Virus record (IMG/VR): IMGVR_UViG_2617271049_000016
Strand: one strand, 5' to 3'
Origin: a virus
Lineage: Duplodnaviria; Heunggongvirae; Uroviricota; Caudoviricetes
Length of the DNA stretch: 21,678 nt
Positions 10,211-20,039 of this stretch are shown here, one piece after another (within the stretch, counting starts at the first letter, position 1; every line of letters begins with the position of its first letter). The position numbers and the translations under genes are program-made. The notes under the pieces were generated by a model. That model did no database searches and was not told where the DNA came from. It saw only the letters and a program-made list of their open reading frames with translations.

Positions 10211-10489
10211 TTACCTCCAGATCCGTTGCTGGAAAGTGCGGGACGCACGTGGTGGGCGTTCGGAATAAGGCAGCCTGACAGAGATTATCCAGTGCCGATA
10301 GTCGAGACTGAGAGCTTTCTTAACCTCGAACCCGCGCCTGCGGTAAGAATGAATCAGCCATTCGGCCTGTTCTGCAGTGCATGGAGGGTGCTGGAACCAT
10401 TCAGACTTGAATGCGTGAGAATACCGCCCGTGCGTGCAGGCAAGAACGGGCGAATTATCAGAATTGTAATATTTTGCGTTGCGTGCCAT
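10211..10489 (-). CDS. Hypothetical protein (92 aa), coupled to ydfU
   Basis: ATG at 10489 with a GGAGA SD 6 nt upstream; its stop overlaps the ydfU SD; protein-like composition. Confidence 0.45.
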   Translation of the reverse strand: MARNAKYYNSDNSPVLACTHGRYSHAFKSEWFQHPPCTAEQAEWLIHSYRRRGFEVKKALSLDYRHWIISVRLPYSERPPRASRTFQQRIWR

Positions 10490-10555
10490 CGGTTTTCTCC
10501 GGTGGCACGGTGTTACTCAGCGGGAGTTCAGCCCCGCGCAAGATTGTAGATGAGT

Positions 10556-10807
10556 TTATTCTCCTGAAAAAGCAGAAAAGCCAGCTTTTATTCCGATCTC
10601 TTTCAATGCCTGTAATGAAGTGACAAACTCACCTTCGCGCAAGATAAATCCGTCCGTGACCCGAGCATCCACAAAATTAATTAACGCAGCCCCATTCTTT
10701 CGCAAACACATAATGCGGTAATGACTAACAAGATTTCCATTTTCAACGCACACAGCATAGAGGCCATCTTCACAAAAAATTTTACGCAGTTCTTCGATGT
10801 TCATCAT
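10556..10807 (-). CDS. rem: Rem-like protein (83 aa)
   Basis: Intact ORF MMNIEELRKIFCEDGLYAVCVENGNLVSHYRIMCLRKNG...; position between ydfU and hokD. Confidence 0.7.
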   Translation of the reverse strand: MMNIEELRKIFCEDGLYAVCVENGNLVSHYRIMCLRKNGAALINFVDARVTDGFILREGEFVTSLQALKEIGIKAGFSAFSGE

Positions 10808-10937
10808 CAGAATCCTTCCGGATAATTAGCTCTCCCCTTTAAGGGACCATCCCTCTTATCCCTGCGCGCTACTTAAGTATTTTTGATTCTATTCCGGCAC
10901 CGTCAAGAACTTCAAACGCGTTGAAAATAAAAACAAA

Positions 10938-10955
10938 AACCCGCCGAAGCGGGTT
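10938..10955 (-). terminator. Rho-independent terminator downstream of relB-relE-hokD
   Basis: cccgc-cgaa-gcggg hairpin followed on the minus strand by TTTTTGTTTTT. Confidence 0.6.
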
Positions 10956-11023
10956 AAGTGCGGGTGCGTTGAGGATGCCTGCCACATCAGAGGTGGCGAG
11001 GGATTTCTCCCCCGCCGGGTCTC

Positions 11024-11179
11024 TTACTCCTCAGGTTCGTAAGCTGTGAAGACAGCGACCTCCGTCTGGCCGGTTCGGATTCGTACCTCGCAGAGGTCTT
11101 TCCTCGTTACCAGTGCCGTCACTATGACGGTTAAACAGATGACGATCAGGGCGATTAACATCGCCTTTTGCTGCTTCAT
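11024..11179 (-). CDS. hokD: Hok-family type I toxin (51 aa)
   Basis: Manual translation MKQQKAMLIALIVICLTVIVTALVTRKDLCEVRIRTGQTEVAVFTAYEPEE; too short for the ORF track. Confidence 0.85.
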   Translation of the reverse strand: MKQQKAMLIALIVICLTVIVTALVTRKDLCEVRIRTGQTEVAVFTAYEPEE

Positions 11180-11250
11180 AGCCTGCTTCTCCTGTCAACG
11201 CAAAGCAGAAGTGTCACCTTCGGTGCGAAACAGAGATGTCATGCTTTGGT

Positions 11251-11531
11251 TCAGAGAATGCGTTTGACCGCCTCGCTATATACTTCCGAGCGTTCTCTTT
11301 TCCCAACAGAAATCACGAAAACGACAACTTTCTCGTCTATAACCTGGTATACAAGGCGATAGACCGGAGCTTAATCTTGTAACAATCAGGCATACCACGG
11401 AGCTTGTTTGCTTCAATCCGGGGTGACTCAAGTACTTCAACCAGCTTCTTTTTCAACTGTTCACGTACCGTCGAGCCCAGCTTTCGCCATTCCTTTAGTG
11501 CCCGCTCGTCAAAATCCAGAAAATACGCCAT
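11251..11531 (-). pseudogene. relE: relE toxin gene with an apparent 7-bp deletion causing a frameshift (64-aa truncated product)
   Basis: N-terminal frame MAYFLDFDERALKEWRKLGSTVREQLKKKLVEVLESPRIEANKLRGMPDCYKIKLRS then shifts; the RelE C-terminus YRLVYQVIDEKVVVFVISVGKRERSEVYSEAVKRIL is intact in the other frame down to the native stop at 11251; about 7 nt are missing relative to RelE as I recall it. Confidence 0.65.
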
Positions 11532-11770
11532 CAGAGTTCATCCAGCGTCACACGTACTGGCTTAGGATTACGAAGCCGTTCTTTCACTATCTCCACAAGT
11601 TCAGCATCTTCATCACTCAGGAGTGTCTGTTTGAACGGCAAGCGTTCATTGTCAGCGATATACTCGAGCATGAGACGAAGCGCTTCAGAAGGAGTTACAC
11701 CCATTTTTTCAAGCGCGGCGTAAGAACGCGCTTTAAGTTCATCGTCAATACGCAGGTTAATGCTACCCAT
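11531..11770 (-). CDS. relB: RelB antitoxin (79 aa)
   Basis: MGSINLRIDDELKARSYAALEKMGVTPSEALRLMLEYIADNERLPFKQTLLSDEDAELVEIVKERLRNPKPVRVTLDEL; its stop overlaps the relE ATG. Confidence 0.9.
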   Translation of the reverse strand: MGSINLRIDDELKARSYAALEKMGVTPSEALRLMLEYIADNERLPFKQTLLSDEDAELVEIVKERLRNPKPVRVTLDEL

Positions 11771-11781
11771 GTCTTACACCT

Positions 11782-11807
11782 CTTGTAATTACAAATGTCA
11801 TTACAAG
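11782..11807 (-). promoter_or_regulatory. relBE operator/promoter region (relO-like inverted repeats)
   Basis: cttgtaattacaa and tgtcattacaag palindromic repeats starting 12 nt upstream of the relB start. Confidence 0.55.
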
Positions 11808-12100
11808 TATCGCACTACAACATGCTTAGGGCAAGTCACGAAGGAAGTCAGAAAGTAGTCGTAAGAACGGTGATCACTGTCCGCTTTGTGCCAGGAGCAG
11901 CCATTGCTAAGTCCATCCTGTATTGTGCAGGTCAGCTCGTTTTTAAAGAGTCCGGCCATCATCTTACTGGTACAGACACCATATACTTTGTGACGGTCAG
12001 GCTACATATGCACAACTCAACTTATTCATCTATTTTTTGCTTTAGCATGTCAGTGTTGCTTTCTCGTCGGCGGGTGAGCGGTGACCTGACCTGTCGATAA
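11795..12100 (+). CDS. ydfV: YdfV-like ORF (101 aa); coding status doubtful
   Basis: ORF at the Qin ydfV position; overlaps the relB promoter region; low-complexity composition. Confidence 0.3.
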   Translation: MSLQVSHYNMLRASHEGSQKVVVRTVITVRFVPGAAIAKSILYCAGQLVFKESGHHLTGTDTIYFVTVRLHMHNSTYSSIFCFSMSVLLSRRRVSGDLTCR

Positions 12101-12252
12101 AGGAACGTAACACGTTTTATGCAACACCCGCATGCGGCAGAAAATTATTGCCGAACGTTTACCCCTGTCAACAAGCTTTACTTTCTGAGGCGCGCCAGCC
12201 CGCGAGGAAAACAATCTGAACATCAAACAATTAATGACACAAGAAATACGAT

Positions 12253-12279
12253 TAAAGATTTTTTTGTGCATGCCGATAG
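12253..12279 (+). promoter_or_regulatory. Sigma-28 (FliA) class 3 flagellar promoter for flxA
   Basis: TAAAGATT, 11-nt spacer, GCCGATAG against consensus TAAAGTTT-N11-GCCGATAA; AGGAG SD follows before the flxA ATG. Confidence 0.75.
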
Positions 12280-12302
12280 TGCTTTTTTAAAAGGAGAAAT
12301 CT

Positions 12303-12635
12303 ATGTCTGTCACAATTCAGGGAAATACCTCAACCGTTATTTCAAACAACTCCGCCCCGGAAGGAACATCAGAAATAGCCAAAATCACAAGACAAATTCA
12401 GGTGCTGACTGAAAAGCTTGGGAAAATCTCATCGGAAGAGGGGATGACGACACAGCAGAAAAAAGAAATGGCTGCATTGGTACAGAAGCAAATTGAAAGC
12501 CTCTGGGCTCAACTGGAGCAGTTGTTAAGGCAGCAGGCAGAGAAAAAGAATGAAGACGCGACAGTTCAGCCTGATAAAAAAGAAGAGAAAAAAGACGATA
12601 CAAATACCGCTGGCACCATTGATATTTACGTCTAA
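12303..12635 (+). CDS. flxA: FlxA (FliA-regulated protein, 110 aa)
   Basis: MSVTIQGNTSTVISNNSAPEGTSEIAKITRQIQVLTEKLGK...; sigma-28 promoter upstream; terminator downstream. Confidence 0.85.
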   Translation: MSVTIQGNTSTVISNNSAPEGTSEIAKITRQIQVLTEKLGKISSEEGMTTQQKKEMAALVQKQIESLWAQLEQLLRQQAEKKNEDATVQPDKKEEKKDDTNTAGTIDIYV

Positions 12636-12649
12636 GTGACAGCCGTATT

Positions 12650-12672
12650 GTGGCCCTCATCGGGCCACTTTT
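12650..12672 (+). terminator. Rho-independent terminator of flxA
   Basis: gtggccc-tcatc-gggccac stem-loop followed by TTTT. Confidence 0.6.
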
Positions 12673-13071
12673 CGCCATCAGCCTTTTCTTTAAAGACATA
12701 TTATCTTTGTATCATTTCTGATAGTTAACATTACAAGATATAAGTAATGGACGCACTCCCAATTAGTCTATTTAAATCGCCACGAGTTTAACTGACAACC
12801 CATGATCAATTATGAATTGCAACTATTTCTGTAGTCACTTTTGTGGGGACAGTCCACAAAACTGCCAACTTCCGCTTCTTGCTCTTAGCGGACATTAGCA
12901 TAGGCTATTTACCATAACGCCTCATTACGCGCACCGCCCAGACTGACTCAGCGCGTTTCTGGCATATCCCCGGTAAAACAAGTAACAAACCACCCGAAAA
13001 TGAACACCAGAAACGCGACTTAAGAATCTACCCTATGAATGGATATGCACTCAACCGAATCGATCTTGGTT

Positions 13072-14281
13072 TCAATCTTTTTTATCGGGATCAGGCTTCT
13101 TTTTAGGTAACTTCGGGGGCTTAACTTGCTGATGACTTTGCGTTCGGCGCGTAAGCCAGGGATGGTCAGCTTTAGGTTTAACATAGTATTTTGAGCGTAA
13201 ATCAATACGGGCATTATCCACTCGTTCATGGACACTCTTTTCATCATCCAGTGGTATAGGCTCCGGGCCATCAACATACTTTTCCCAGCCCAGCGCTTTC
13301 CCGTCATACAGAACGTTAATTTCACCGTCAAAGTTCTCGCATACAGTAACAACCGAATGCCTAAGTCGATATCCCCGGCCCTCACTGCGTACCTGAAACG
13401 CACTGCTTTTGTACTGGAAAGTGAGATTTTTAGACAGAACGCGCTTCGCCTGTAGGCTGAAGATATAACCCAGTTCCTCTTCAGAATGGTGCACATCAAG
13501 ATGAGCATTATCAGTAGTACGAGGCGACGTAGCGAACCGGTTGTTATAGGCTTCAATAAAGGTCGGCAACCATGCATTTGGCATGGATTGGCTCGATGCC
13601 CAGTGTCTTTATCGCACGAGTGAACTGGGTCAGCTCACCTTCCCGCTCTGGGTTATTTACCCTGAATATACTCTGTCTATCAGAGTAGAGAGCGAGCGGT
13701 ACGCCATGATCATTAAGGTAACCCCGGAGGGTTTCCATGTAAGCCCGGGTTGTTTCAGCAGGCACAAAACGCAACGCCATCAACGCACTGGTGGCATCAT
13801 CAATGAAAACGATCAGTGTACATCTGGGGCCTCGATTTTCAAACCAGTCATGAGGTGAGCCATCAATCTGGATCAGTTCACCGTAAGATGGTCGTCGCAT
13901 GCGGCGTTGATATATACGGGCAATTTTACGACGGCGTTCACGCCATAACCCCTCTTCTATCATCCACTTTCTGAGAGTTTCAACGGATAAAGATAAACCG
14001 TGTATCTCGCGCAATTTTTCGCACGCAAACGTAGGTCCAAAATCAGCGTAACGGCCTTTGAGGAGTGAAATTACTGTTGCTCTGAATTCAGTAGAAAAGG
14101 AATTATTAGGACGCTTTCCACGTCGGTGGGAAACCAGACCAGAAGGCCCTTCATTTCTATACCGTTGCACCAGACGTTTAACCTGCCGAATAGAAATGCC
14201 AATGCGTGCCGCAGCTTGTTCCTGAATAATCTGAAGTCGGTGGAGTTCCTTATGACTCATCGTAACAGTCTCTTTGATCAT
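13072..14281 (-). pseudogene. rve-type DDE transposase/integrase-like gene (HTH plus integrase core), split across two frames by an internal deletion
   Basis: ORF A (13553-14281) has an HTH and the first two catalytic Asp (IQIDGS..., LYSDRQ); ORF B (13072-13584) has the post-catalytic NAWLPTFIEAYNNRF segment. The two frames overlap at 13553-13584 and the expected Glu-containing segment is absent. Confidence 0.6.
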
Positions 14282-14615
14282 GAAAAATCCCCCAGAGAAT
14301 TGTCTGGGGACATTTTAGAATGGTTCAAAGGGGACATTACAGCTTGGTGTTAACAATAGCCTGCTTCTCCGTGCCTTTCGGCACGTAAGAGGCTAACCTA
14401 CATGTGTCTAGCATGAAATTGGCCTCAGATTAATGTTAAGCGTCTTGCAGGACGCGTAATGTTAACTGGGGCTTTTCTCTATCTGCCGTTGGTGTCCATG
14501 CCCGAGGCAGATAGCCTCAAGCACCCGCAGTCATTCTACTTAACTAAGATTTCCCCGCAAACCGTTTTTGTCCAGCACAGTAAATATCCAACTAAACCAA
14601 TGGAGTTCGCTGTAT

Positions 14616-16763: not shown

Positions 16764-16988
16764 TTATCCTCTGAAACCAGGCGGAATTTCTGTATCCGGT
16801 TCAGAAATATGATTAACACAACGCTGTACAGGTGAACGTCCCAGGCGGATGACCAGTTCGTCCCATTTTTCGCGGAGCTTTGACGGGCTCATGATGTTTT
16901 TTACCCAGAATGGATCTCGCTGAACCCGACCAAACATTTCGCAAATTTGTCTGTGGCTTCTGCCATCCAGCATCCGCATTGTGCGCAC
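16764..16988 (-). CDS. Hypothetical protein (74 aa) with a possible HTH, divergent from the dicB operon
   Basis: Intact ORF ...SHRQICEMFGRVQRDPFWVKNIMSPSKLREKWDEL...; function not recognised. Confidence 0.35.
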   Translation of the reverse strand: MRTMRMLDGRSHRQICEMFGRVQRDPFWVKNIMSPSKLREKWDELVIRLGRSPVQRCVNHISEPDTEIPPGFRG

Positions 16989-17564: not shown

Positions 17565-20039
17565 ATGAGTAAAGTCTTTATTTGCGCCGCTATTCCTGAC
17601 GAACTGGCAACAAGGGAAGAAGGCGCTGTGGCTGTAGCCACAGCCATTGAAGCTGGCGACGAACGCCGTGCTCGAGCAAAATTTCACTGGCAATTCCTGG
17701 AACATTATCCGGCTGCTCAGGACTGCGCTTATAAATTTATTGTCTGCGAGGATAAACCTGGCATACCCCGCCCTGCCCTCGATTCATGGGATGCTGAATA
17801 TATGCAGGAAAACCGCTGGGATGAGGAGTCTGCTTCTTTTGTCCCGGTTGAGACTGAATCCGATCCGATGAACGTCACTTTTGACAAGCTGGCCCCTGAA
17901 GTACAGAACGCTGTCATGGTTAAGTTCGACACATGTGAAAACATCACCGTTGATATGGTTATTAGCGCACAGGAATTGTTGCAGGAAGACATGGCAACAT
18001 TCGACGGACATATCGTTGAAGCGTTGATGAAAATGCCAGAAGTTAACGCCATGTATCCGGAGCTTAAGTTGCACGCCATTGGGTGGGTTAAGCATAAATG
18101 TATTCCTGGTGCTAAATGGCCCGAAATTCAGGCAGAGATGCGCATCTGGAAAAAACGTCGCGAAGGTGAACGCAAGGAAACCGGAAAATACACGTCTGTT
18201 GTTGATCTCGCCCGCGCCAGAGCCAATCAACAGTACACTGAAAATTCAACAGGAAAAATCAGCCCGGTCATTGCTGCCATTCATCGCGAATACAAGCAGA
18301 CATGGAAAACACTGGATGACGAACTGGCCTACGCTCTCTGGCCTAGTGATGTGGATGCCGGAAACATTGACGGCAGCATCCATCGCTGGGCAAAAAAAGA
18401 AGTTATCGACAACGACCGCGAAGACTGGAAGCGTATCTCGGCATCAATGCGCAAACAGCCTGATGCCCTTCGCTACGACCGCCAAACTATTTTTGGCCTT
18501 GTCCGTGAGCGTCCGATCGACATTCACAAAGNNNNNNNNNNAGCACTGAACAAATATATCTGCGAATACCTGACGACAAAGGGCGTGTTTGAGAATGAAG
18601 AAACAGACCTGGGCACTGTTGATGTTCTCCAGTCATCAGAAACACAAACTGATGCAGTGGAAACTGAGGTATCTGATATCCCAAAAAATGAAACCGCGCC
18701 GGAAGCTGAACCATCTGTAGAGCGTGAGGGGCCGTTCTATTTCCTCTTCGCAGATAAGGACGGAGAAAAATACGGTCGCGCAAACAAACTCTCTGGTCTG
18801 GATAAGGCACTGGCTGCTGGCGCCACTGAAATCACAAAAGAAGAATATTTTGCCCGAAAAAATGGCACATACACGGGCTTACCGCAAAATGTAGATACCG
18901 CTGAAGATTCAGAACAACCAGAGCCGATAAAAGTTACCGCTGACGAAGTAAACAAAATTATGCAGGCAGCCAATATCAGCCAGCCTGACGCCGATAAGTT
19001 GCTTGCTGCATCACGTGGTGAATTTGTTGAAGGGATTAGTGACCCGAATGATCCGAAATGGGTTAAGGGGCTCCAGACCCGCGATTCTGTGAACCAGAAC
19101 CAGCATGAATCGGAACGGAACTACCAAAAAGCGGAACAAAACAGTCCAAATGCGTTACAAAACGAGCCAGAAACGAAACAGCCTGAACCAGTAGCGCAAC
19201 AGGAAGTGGAAAAAGTCTGCACCGCCTGCGGTCAGACCGGCGGCGGCAACTGCCCTGATTGTGGCGCGGTGATGGGCGACGCAACATACCAAGAAACATT
19301 CGATGAAGAGTATCAGGTTGAAGTTCAGGAAGATGATCCGGAGGAAATGGAAGGCGCTGAACATCCACACAAGGAGAACACTGGCGGCAATCAGCATCAC
19401 AATAGCGATAATGAAACTGGCGAGACGGCAGATCACCCAATTAAGGTGAACGGTCATCACGAAATCACATCCACCAGCAGGACGTGTGACCATCTAATGA
19501 TCGACCTTGAAACCATGGGAAAAAATCCTGATGCCCCGATCATCTCAATAGGTGCAATATTTTTCGATCCGCAAACCGGAGATATGGGACCGGAATTTAG
19601 TAAGACTATCGATCTGGAAACTGCTGGCGGAGTCATTGATCGGGACACCATTAAATGGTGGCTTAAGCAATCACGCGAAGCGCAATCTGCCATTATGACC
19701 GATGAAATCCCGTTAGATGATGCACTGTTACAATTGCGAGAATTTATCGACGAAAACTCCGGTGAATTTTTTGTTCAGGTTTGGGGAAATGGAGCCAACT
19801 TCGACAACACGATTTTGCGCCGTTCATACGAACGGCAGGGGATCCCCTGCCCGTGGCGTTACTACAACGATCGCGATGTACGCACAATCGTTGAGCTGGG
19901 GAAAGCCATAGACTTCGATGCCAGAACGGCTATTCCATTCGAAGGTGAGCGCCATAATGCACTTGATGACGCCCGTTACCAGGCAAAATACGTTTCAGTT
20001 ATCTGGCAAAAACTGATCCCGAGTCAGGCTGATTCTTAA
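17565..20039 (+). CDS. ydfE: Large prophage exonuclease-family protein (824 aa): YdfE-like N-terminal domain, RecE-like acidic linker with a Cys4 zinc ribbon, C-terminal DEDDh (DnaQ-like) 3'-5' exonuclease domain; contains a 10-N gap
   Basis: ATG at 17565 with GAGG 9 nt upstream. C-terminal motifs MIDLETMG (Exo I), VWGNGANFD (Exo II) and [13 protein letters not shown] (Exo III). [31 protein letters not shown] resembles the RecE linker as I recall it. The frame is maintained across the N-run. Confidence 0.7.
18531..18540. other. Run of 10 N (assembly gap or masked bases) inside the exonuclease gene
   Basis: Literal n characters in the sequence; the only ambiguous bases in the window. Confidence 0.99.

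What the first reader, a model, noticed from the sequence alone, without database searches (positions are those of the whole stretch)
11251..11531. relE toxin gene appears inactivated by a 7-bp deletion while relB and hokD are intact
The relE frame reads normally to ...CYKIKLRS and then shifts. The remaining RelE C-terminus (YRLVYQVIDEKVVVFVISVGKRERSEVYSEAVKRIL) is encoded intact in a different frame and ends at the native stop. Relative to RelE as I recall it, about 7 nt encoding the Ser-Gly dipeptide are missing, with CT microhomology at the breakpoint. The truncated 64-aa product would lack the C-terminal catalytic region. This is the classic outcome for a toxin-antitoxin pair: toxin lost, antitoxin and operator retained.
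Basis: partly seen in the sequence, partly recalled or inferred. Interest (0 to 1): 0.55.

Follow-up and report, generated by a model that had tools for sequence, protein, structure and literature searches.

The report
relE toxin gene killed by 7-bp deletion
In this E. coli prophage the well-known RelE toxin gene has been broken by a real, inherited 7-base deletion while its antitoxin gene relB, the operator and the neighbouring hokD gene are untouched, which is an ordinary case of a toxin-antitoxin pair decaying toxin-first.

Summary
Window 11000-11800, which covers relO, relB, relE and hokD, is base-for-base identical to E. coli K-12 except for one 7-bp gap in relE. K-12 reads CCGGT[CTTCAGG]CTATCG, and the junction lies at window 11361-11363 with a 2-nt CT ambiguity. 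The reading frame yields RelE residues 1-57 plus IALYTRL and a stop (64 aa). Residues 60-95 are still encoded, out of frame, up to the native stop.

The deletion is not an assembly artefact. The identical 64-aa product is encoded on 17 contigs from independent NCBI, ENA and Logan assemblies, in the same Qin-like prophage and 99.7-100% identical to the window. It is rare and derived: none of 5,426 complete E. coli genomes has the junction, while 1,202 carry the intact site, including the closest relative.

The truncation removes Arg61, Arg81, Tyr87 and about half of the fold, so a dead toxin is the best reading. This is inferred from published work, not tested here. RelB probably remains as a weaker autorepressor without its co-repressor.

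This is an ordinary pseudogene of a textbook gene, and the allele is already in public databases, labelled as a toxin. Whether relB is kept by selection or simply has not yet decayed cannot be told. Interest is low.

The parts
11783..11806 (-). relO operator (TTGTAATGACAT + TTGTAATTACAA, four RelB hexad sites overlapping the relBE promoter), intact
   Evidence: Exact single match in the window. The sequence and its function are taken from PMC2812701. Identical to K-12.
11531..11770 (-). relB antitoxin gene, intact, 79 aa; its stop codon overlaps the relE ATG by one base (position 11531)
   Evidence: ORF list. DNA identical to K-12 relB. Pfam RelB PF04221 covers positions 1-82/82, E=1e-32.
11337..11531 (-). 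Truncated relE reading frame: RelE residues 1-57, then 7 frameshifted residues (IALYTRL) and a premature TAG at 11337-11339
   Evidence: Pfam ParE_toxin covers only profile positions 2-64 of 89 at 23.6 bits, against 51 bits and 2-87/89 for intact RelE.
11361..11363 (-). Deletion junction: 7 bp of K-12 relE (CTTCAGG / TTCAGGC / TCAGGCT, i.e. codons Ser58-Gly59 plus one base) are missing; the placement is ambiguous over the 2-nt CT microhomology
   Evidence: Alignment to K-12 and to the closest complete genome L013.
11251..11361 (-). relE 3' remnant: codons Tyr60-Leu95 plus the native TGA stop, sequence-identical to K-12 but now out of frame and untranslated
   Evidence: Frame-2 translation. Identical to K-12.
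11024..11179 (-). hokD (relF), third gene of the relBEF operon, intact 51-aa Hok-family ORF; no adjacent Sok antisense RNA
   Evidence: ORF. Identical to K-12. Pfam HOK_GEF E=1e-23. No sok match in 10850-11900 at E<=1. Co-transcription with relBE is reported in PMC3598666.

Best explanation
relE in this window is a genuine, lineage-specific pseudogene. A 7-bp deletion occurred between two CT dinucleotides in the chromosomal, Qin-like-prophage copy of relBE-hokD. This is consistent with replication slippage or microhomology-mediated end joining. The deletion shifts the frame after Ser57, and translation ends 7 codons later. The 64-aa product keeps the N-terminal part of RelE, including Lys52 and Lys54. 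It lacks Arg61, Arg81 (general acid), Tyr87 and helix alpha3, which is about 40% of the protein including roughly half of the beta-sheet core. It is therefore expected to be unfolded or degraded and unable to cleave A-site mRNA (inferred). relB, its operator and its translation signals are untouched, so RelB should still be made and should still repress PrelBE. Without its co-repressor it should bind relO with more than 10-fold lower affinity and no cooperativity, and it should be more exposed to Lon. That predicts a partly derepressed relB-'relE-hokD transcript (inferred from PMC2812701). The allele arose once, recently, in a clone whose prophage is otherwise nearly identical to relatives with intact relE, and it has been inherited vertically. 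It is one step in the usual toxin-first erosion of a chromosomal toxin-antitoxin locus inside a decaying prophage.
For: The deletion is the only difference from K-12 across 801 bases of relO-relB-relE-hokD. It is one of only 9 differences in 10.7 kb of colinear prophage. The exact 64-aa product is in NCBI nr, ENA and Logan and is encoded on 17 contigs from independent assemblies, always with the same neighbours (flxA, ydfV, relB, hokD, rem, ydfU). Those contigs differ from the window by 0-4 changes over up to 20 kb. One metagenome scaffold has a clustered 16-SNP patch far from relE. L003 carries the deletion but lacks the 1.16-kb element at window 13299-14459, so the allele has persisted through at least one later rearrangement. 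It is derived and rare: the junction 40-mer is found in 0 of 5,426 complete genomes, the intact 47-mer in 1,202, and the closest complete genome, L013, has an annotated intact relE. The junction is also absent from the GTDB representatives and JGI metagenomes. The Pfam toxin domain is only two-thirds covered. Catalytic roles of Arg81, Tyr87 and Lys52/54 come from PMC5027501 and PMC3507626, and R81A alone is used as the non-toxic mutant (PMC3507626, PMC2812701). Toxin-first decay as a general pattern is from PMC13617665. Independent relE knock-outs exist elsewhere: plasmid relE interrupted after nt 158 by a Tn3-family inverted repeat, and a 1-nt frameshift allele, P0012.
Against: There is no functional test, so loss of toxicity, instability of the fragment and derepression of the operon are all inferred. 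Lys52 and Lys54 are retained. Raw reads of the source assembly were not available, and the window is from a draft, as shown by a 10-N run at 18532-18541. The deletion mechanism is a guess, since a 2-nt microhomology is weak evidence. The independence of the 17 contigs rests on different accessions and projects, not on metadata I could inspect.
Confidence: 0.9

Rival explanations
1. The 7-bp gap is a sequencing or assembly error in a draft genome, and relE is really intact.
For: The window comes from a scaffolded draft, as shown by the 10-N run at 18532-18541. No complete genome carries the junction.
Against: The identical allele is on 17 contigs from different NCBI, ENA and Logan assemblies and a metagenome. 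The site is not a homopolymer or simple repeat. Seven-base deletions are not a typical platform error. One carrier (L003) has a different local haplotype.
Confidence: 0.02
2. The orphaned relB is kept by selection as an anti-addiction or regulatory module. The deletion removed a costly toxin, and RelB is retained to neutralise RelE from incoming plasmids that carry near-identical relBE copies. On this reading the locus is a domesticated antitoxin and not a decaying remnant.
For: relB, relO and the translation signals are perfectly conserved. Near-identical relBE copies exist on plasmids: 37 plasmid places have the intact relE site, and plasmid relB in L010/L011 differs by 1 aa and has the same operator. 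The anti-addiction concept and the orphan-antitoxin argument are set out in PMC7354431. Orphan antitoxins are abundant in E. coli (PMC10790755).
Against: The whole 10.7-kb segment has only 6 SNPs relative to K-12, so conservation of relB carries no signal of selection. The deletion is simply recent. The allele is rare. The prophage around it is decaying in other ways too, with a 3.1-kb loss and an IS. The mechanistic description is the same as in the best explanation, and only the evolutionary reading differs.
Confidence: 0.12
3. The 64-aa RelE fragment is still functional as a non-toxic partner. It binds the RelB C-terminus, acts as co-repressor and/or shields RelB from Lon, giving a toxin-free but fully autoregulated module.
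For: The fragment retains the N-terminal part, including Glu14, which forms a salt bridge with RelB Arg65 in the complex (PMC3507626). Pfam still just recognises the fragment at 23.6 bits against a cutoff of 23.
Against: RelB residues 50-79 bind the folded RelE core by displacing helix alpha3 (PMC3507626). The fragment lacks residues 58-95, which from my knowledge of the RelE fold make up about half of the beta-sheet core, and it carries 7 unrelated residues. No test was possible.
Confidence: 0.05
4. Ribosomal frameshifting or transcriptional slippage restores the frame and yields a RelE lacking Ser58-Gly59.
For: The downstream coding sequence is perfectly preserved up to the native stop.
Against: There is no X XXY YYZ heptamer anywhere in the 64-codon frame. 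The only homopolymer of 5 or more bases (AAAAA at nt 78) lies far upstream of the junction and in the wrong place to restore the frame. Preservation of the 3' part is explained by the deletion being recent.
Confidence: 0.01

Closest known systems
E. coli K-12 relBE(-relF/hokD) operon of the Qin cryptic prophage (relB b1564, relE b1563, hokD b1562)
   Same: Same locus and same gene order: flxA, ydfV, relB, relE, hokD, rem, ydfU. 801/801 aligned bases are identical, including the relO operator, the relB/relE 1-nt overlap and hokD.
   Different: Seven bases of relE are missing, giving a 64-aa truncated product in place of the 95-aa RelE. The surrounding prophage also differs from K-12 outside 2539-13256.
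Eroded chromosomal type II toxin-antitoxin loci / orphan antitoxins (toxin-first two-step decay; PMC13617665, PMC7192599, PMC10790755)
   Same: The toxin ORF is truncated by a small deletion while the antitoxin ORF and operator stay intact. The locus lies in a mobile-element remnant.
   Different: Nothing substantive. This is a very young example in which the toxin 3' part is still sequence-perfect.
Plasmid-borne relBE with relE interrupted by a Tn3-family transposon (P0003; e.g. CP026764.1)
   Same: Same relBE family: relB differs by 1 aa, the operator is the same, and relE is identical for its first 158 nt. The toxin is again the gene disrupted and relB is left intact.
   Different: It is an independent event with a different mechanism, a transposon end inserted after codon 52, on a different replicon (plasmid). 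It is much more common: 198 contigs listed and 391 index blocks.
Laboratory non-toxic RelE(R81A)
   Same: Loss of Arg81 alone is enough for RelE to be handled as a non-toxic active-site mutant (PMC3507626, PMC2812701). The natural allele loses Arg81 and more.
   Different: R81A is full-length and folded and keeps its co-repressor function. The natural allele lacks 38 residues and probably loses co-repressor function as well (inferred).

Membership tests
RelE mRNA interferase (E. coli relE orthologue, RelE/ParE superfamily) | Orthologous sequence at the orthologous locus | tested here: met
   All 281 remaining bases of relE are identical to K-12 relE, in the same gene neighbourhood.
RelE mRNA interferase (E. 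coli relE orthologue, RelE/ParE superfamily) | Uninterrupted ~95-aa reading frame covering the whole toxin domain | tested here: not met
   The frame ends after 64 codons, and ParE_toxin profile coverage is 2-64/89 against 2-87/89 for intact RelE. It is therefore filed as a relE pseudogene, not as a RelE toxin.
RelE mRNA interferase (E. coli relE orthologue, RelE/ParE superfamily) | Catalytic residues Lys52/Lys54, Arg61, Arg81 and Tyr87 present in the product | tested here: not met
   Lys52 and Lys54 are present. Arg61, Arg81 and Tyr87 lie downstream of the frameshift (residue roles from PMC5027501 and PMC3507626).
RelE mRNA interferase (E. coli relE orthologue, RelE/ParE superfamily) | Ribosome-dependent mRNA cleavage or growth inhibition relieved by RelB | not testable with these tools
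   This needs expression of the cloned allele.
Type II toxin-antitoxin operon relBE (regulatory half) | Intact RHH antitoxin gene upstream, overlapping the toxin start, with the relO operator in the promoter | tested here: met
   relB is 79 aa with a full Pfam RelB match. The TGATG overlap is at 11531. relO is an exact match at 11783-11806.
Eroded TA locus / orphan antitoxin | Toxin disrupted and antitoxin intact, with the disruption derived relative to intact relatives and real rather than an artefact | tested here: met
   The intact site is in 1,202 complete genomes and in the closest relative L013. The deletion allele is on 17 independent contigs.
Anti-addiction module | Chromosomal antitoxin neutralises the toxin of a homologous plasmid system and reduces post-segregational killing | not testable with these tools
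   Only the precondition was checked: near-identical plasmid relBE copies exist.
hok/sok type I toxin-antitoxin locus (for hokD) | Hok-family ORF | tested here: met
   HOK_GEF PF01848 E=1e-23, 51 aa, identical to K-12 HokD.
hok/sok type I toxin-antitoxin locus (for hokD) | Adjacent Sok antisense RNA | tested here: not met
   No RF01794 match in 10850-11900 even at E<=1. The only sok match in the window is at 14355-14526.
Programmed ribosomal frameshift | Slippery heptamer or homopolymer at the frame junction | tested here: not met
   No X XXY YYZ site in frame and no run at the junction.

The most novel reading that the evidence does not exclude
The clone has converted a prophage relBE addiction module into a toxin-free, RelB-only locus that is kept by selection. 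RelB would act as an anti-addiction factor against the near-identical relBE systems carried by enterobacterial plasmids. The loss of RelE co-repression would raise relB (and hokD) expression to make that protection effective.
Probability: 0.1. Interest if true: 0.4.

Novelty: already known. Interest (0 to 1): 0.12.

Why it matters
It matters little beyond bookkeeping. The case gives a clean, very young natural example of toxin-first erosion of the model relBE locus: every other base of the operon is unchanged, and the toxin 3' half is still sequence-perfect. Isolates carrying it are natural relE-null, relB-positive strains. They could be used to test ideas about RelB-only autoregulation, anti-addiction against plasmid relBE, and hokD expression without RelE. 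It also flags an annotation problem. Public records name the 64-aa product 'type II toxin-antitoxin system RelE/ParE family toxin' and do not mark it as a pseudogene, so TA-repertoire surveys that count toxins by domain hits would score this dead locus as intact.

Tried and rejected
(1) Assembly artefact: rejected because of independent recurrence and the non-repetitive context.

(2) Looking for the allele in complete E. coli genomes, GTDB species representatives and JGI metagenome contigs found nothing. The positive control with the intact junction worked, so the negatives are meaningful for the complete genomes. The allele was found only through the exact-protein index.

(3) Recoding: no slippery site.

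(4) An internal restart producing the C-terminal part: the only in-frame start is a GTG at 11316, which gives 21 aa and has no purine-rich Shine-Dalgarno-like sequence upstream. Rejected.

(5) A Sok-type antisense RNA near hokD that the deletion might affect: none found.

(6) A literature search for a prior description of this allele found only general work on orphan antitoxins and TA erosion.

(7) Li et al. 2009 (PMC2682910), on RelB displacing the RelE C-terminal helix, is not held in the library. The point was taken from PMC3507626 instead.

(8) I did not run structure prediction on the fragment. A single-sequence model of a 64-aa truncation would not be decisive.

Full report
**What is in the sequence.** On the minus strand of window 11024-11806 lies the relBE-hokD operon of a Qin-like cryptic prophage. 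Its parts are as follows.
- The relO operator is at 11783-11806.
- relB is at 11531-11770 and encodes 79 aa.
- A 64-codon reading frame at 11337-11531 begins with the RelE N-terminus.
- hokD is at 11024-11179 and encodes 51 aa.

The 64-aa product is RelE residues 1-57 (...PDCYKIKLRS) followed by IALYTRL and a TAG. A different frame of the same strand reads YRLVYQVIDEKVVVFVISVGKRERSEVYSEAVKRIL and ends at the native TGA at 11251-11253.

**Check against a reference.** A megablast of window 11000-11800 against 5,426 complete E. coli genomes gave 99.1% identity for all the best hits. Each spanned 808 reference bases for 801 query bases. I fetched the K-12 MG1655 locus (L001) and aligned it. All 801 bases are identical, and there is one 7-base gap inside relE. 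K-12 reads CTC CGG TCT TCA GGC TAT CGC (Leu55 to Arg61), and the window reads CTC CGG TCT ATC GCC. The missing bases can be written CTTCAGG, TTCAGGC or TCAGGCT, so the exact microhomology is the dinucleotide CT.

**Real or artefact.** The window is from a draft assembly, since it contains a run of 10 N at 18532-18541. However, the exact 64-aa sequence is already in the large protein collection. It has NCBI accessions EFA4167501.1, EGM7110267.1, HBA2894734.1 and MBI0594143.1, and one source name gives E. coli O80:H45. It is encoded on 17 contigs from different sources:
- GCA_012247285.1 and GCA_963455775.1;
- Logan assemblies of SRR12183884, SRR22703839, SRR12939034, ERR9752062 and ERR10033194;
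- an ENA metagenome scaffold.

In every case the neighbours are the same: flxA, ydfV, relB, the 64-aa ORF, hokD, rem and ydfU. The site is not a homopolymer. An assembly error repeated identically across these projects is not credible.

**How common, and which state is ancestral.** A 40-mer centred on the junction can only seed a megablast hit if the deletion is present. It matched none of the 5,426 complete genomes. The control 47-mer with the 7 bases present matched 1,202 genomes, with 37 of the matching places on plasmids. The junction 31-mer was also absent from the GTDB species representatives and from the JGI metagenome contigs. The closest complete genome I examined is USDA-ARS-USMARC-51408 (L013). 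It differs from the window by 7 substitutions and a 1-base indel over 11 kb and has an annotated intact relE. The deletion is therefore derived and rare.

The carrier contigs are nearly identical to the window.

| Contig | Differences from the window |
|---|---|
| L005 | 0 in 7,106 bases |
| L009 | 0 in 1,747 bases |
| L002 | 4 in 20.2 kb |
| L004 | 1 in 13.8 kb |
| L003 | 2 in 9.7 kb |

This points to one clone, and probably one mutational event. L003 has the deletion but lacks the 1.16 kb at window 13299-14459, so the allele has outlived at least one later rearrangement. Across the 10.7 kb that is colinear with K-12, only 6 substitutions and two T-run indels accompany the 7-bp deletion. So the perfect preservation of relB, hokD and the relE 3' remnant reflects recency and carries no signal of selection.

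**What it does: shown and inferred.**
- Shown: the frame is broken after Ser57.
- Shown: the product covers only positions 2-64 of the 89-position ParE_toxin profile and scores 23.6 bits, against 51 bits for intact RelE.
- Shown: Arg61, Arg81 and Tyr87 are not in the product, whereas Lys52 and Lys54 are.
- From the literature: Arg81 is the likely general acid, Lys52 or Lys54 the general base, and Tyr87 is required and sits on helix alpha3 (residues 85-95) (PMC5027501, PMC3507626). RelE(R81A) alone is used as the non-toxic form for co-expression and crystallisation (PMC3507626, PMC2812701).
- Inferred: a fragment that lacks residues 58-95 is catalytically dead. From my knowledge of the RelE fold, those residues make up roughly half of the beta-sheet core, so the fragment is probably also unstable.
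- Regulation, from PMC2812701: RelB alone represses PrelBE. RelE raises RelB's affinity for relO more than 10-fold, confers cooperativity and protects RelB from Lon in vitro.
- Inferred: in this clone RelB is still made and still represses, but more weakly, so the relB-'relE-hokD transcript is probably somewhat derepressed. relB, relE and relF/hokD are co-transcribed from PrelBE (PMC3598666), and Rfam finds no Sok antisense RNA next to hokD. Any change in hokD expression would therefore come through this promoter or through polarity from the premature stop. None of this was testable here.

**Alternatives.**
- Recoding is unlikely. There is no X XXY YYZ heptamer in the frame and no run at the junction.
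- A residual role of the fragment as a RelB partner cannot be excluded but is unlikely, because RelB residues 50-79 bind the folded RelE core (PMC3507626).
- The most interesting open reading is evolutionary. An orphan RelB could be retained as an anti-addiction factor (concept in PMC7354431). The precondition is met, since plasmids carry relBE copies whose RelB differs by one residue and which have the same operator. Nothing in the present data favours selection over a recent neutral event.

**Context of recurrent loss.** The protein cluster that contains the 64-aa product holds several other truncated RelE forms.
- The commonest, P0003 (198 contigs listed), is a plasmid copy in which relE is identical for 158 nt. 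It then runs into a Tn3-family terminal repeat (GGGGTTTGAGGGCCAATGGAACGAAAACGTACG), followed by a 1,002-aa transposase, a resolvase and a beta-lactamase gene. relB is intact upstream in L010 and L011.
- P0012 is a 1-nt frameshift that reads into the same IALYTRL tail.

relE has thus been knocked out repeatedly by different mechanisms with relB left in place. This fits the two-step, toxin-first decay described for chromosomal TA systems (PMC13617665) and the abundance of orphan antitoxins in E. coli (PMC10790755).

**Comparison with what is known, and verdict.** The locus is the K-12 relBE-hokD operon and works as that operon does minus its toxin.
- As a relE orthologue it passes the sequence and synteny tests.
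- It fails the tests that define a functional RelE, namely a full-length frame and the catalytic Arg61, Arg81 and Tyr87. It is therefore a relE pseudogene next to an intact relB.
- It meets the definition of an eroded TA locus or orphan antitoxin.

I found no paper describing this particular allele. Even so, the kind of event is well known, and the allele is already deposited, named as a RelE/ParE family toxin and not flagged as a pseudogene. The finding is correct and ordinary, so interest is low.

Noticed in passing
window 18532-18541: A run of 10 N replaces 7 bases (ATCCCGT in L002, L003, L004 and L013). The window therefore comes from a scaffolded or masked draft assembly.
   Followed up: partly
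window ~17012 (junction); L013 15085-18192: The window lacks about 3.1 kb that is present in the closest complete genome: the 5' part of the phage O gene, ydaT, dicC, dicA, ydfA, ydfB, ydfC and the stretch just upstream of dicB. dicB and ydfD remain, but without the DicA repressor and probably without their promoter. Carriers L002-L004 show the same arrangement, with the DUF977 gene next to dicB.
   Followed up: partly
window 13299-14459: A 1.16-kb segment holds an IS-like transposase, seen as ORFs of 242 and 170 aa with HTH_23/28/29/32 domains and annotated ISNCY-family and partial in L013. It is present in the window and most carriers but absent from carrier L003, so it is polymorphic within the deletion-bearing clone.
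   Followed up: partly
window 14355-14526 (-): There is a full-length Rfam sok antitoxin match (RF01794, 104 bits, gathering score 59) with no recognisable hok ORF beside it. It straddles the edge of the IS-like segment. This looks like a second hok/sok locus that has been disrupted.
   Followed up: partly
window 4071 and 4625: Two T-runs are one base longer than in K-12. The one at 4071 lies in ynfN, which RefSeq marks as frameshifted in K-12 but annotates as an intact CDS in L013. The window, like L013, has the longer T-run, the version annotated as intact.
   Followed up: no
L010 4001-4195, L011, L012 (plasmids, e.g. CP026764.1): Plasmid-borne relBE copies have relE interrupted after nt 158 (codon 52) by a Tn3-family terminal repeat, followed by tnpA, a resolvase and a beta-lactamase gene. 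The resulting 64-aa product, P0003, is far more common than the allele studied here: 198 contigs listed and 391 index blocks.
   Followed up: partly
protein cluster (P0004-P0015): Several further truncated RelE variants diverge at or just after Lys52, with tails such as MESMKNLG..., TLLLCVDRRSRL, DRKSVV and IVVVN. This suggests either a hotspot for insertions or rearrangements around codons 52-53 of relE, or contig ends.
   Followed up: no
NCBI records EFA4167501.1, EGM7110267.1, HBA2894734.1, MBI0594143.1: The 64-aa frameshift product is named 'type II toxin-antitoxin system RelE/ParE family toxin' in public records and is not flagged as a pseudogene. Domain-based TA surveys would therefore count it as an intact toxin.
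   Followed up: no
window 7228-7620 and 4332-4718 (-): Two full-length cspA thermoregulator matches (RF01766) lie upstream of the prophage cold-shock genes cspB and cspI. This is expected for Qin and nothing is unusual about them.
   Followed up: no
window 10934-11015 (-): A sub-threshold isrK-like Rfam match (25 bits, gathering score 50) lies just downstream of hokD. It is probably the hok mRNA 3' end or a terminator structure.
   Followed up: no
window 16770-16923 vs L006: The metagenome scaffold L006 carries the relE deletion but has 16 clustered substitutions in about 150 bp relative to the window. This could be a recombination patch or a metagenome-assembly chimera.
   Followed up: no
window 1-2538: The left end of the window is not colinear with K-12 Qin, with only bases 1-314 matching at 94.6%. 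In L002 the corresponding region holds a Phage_tail_L remnant and an IS110-family transposase.
   Followed up: no
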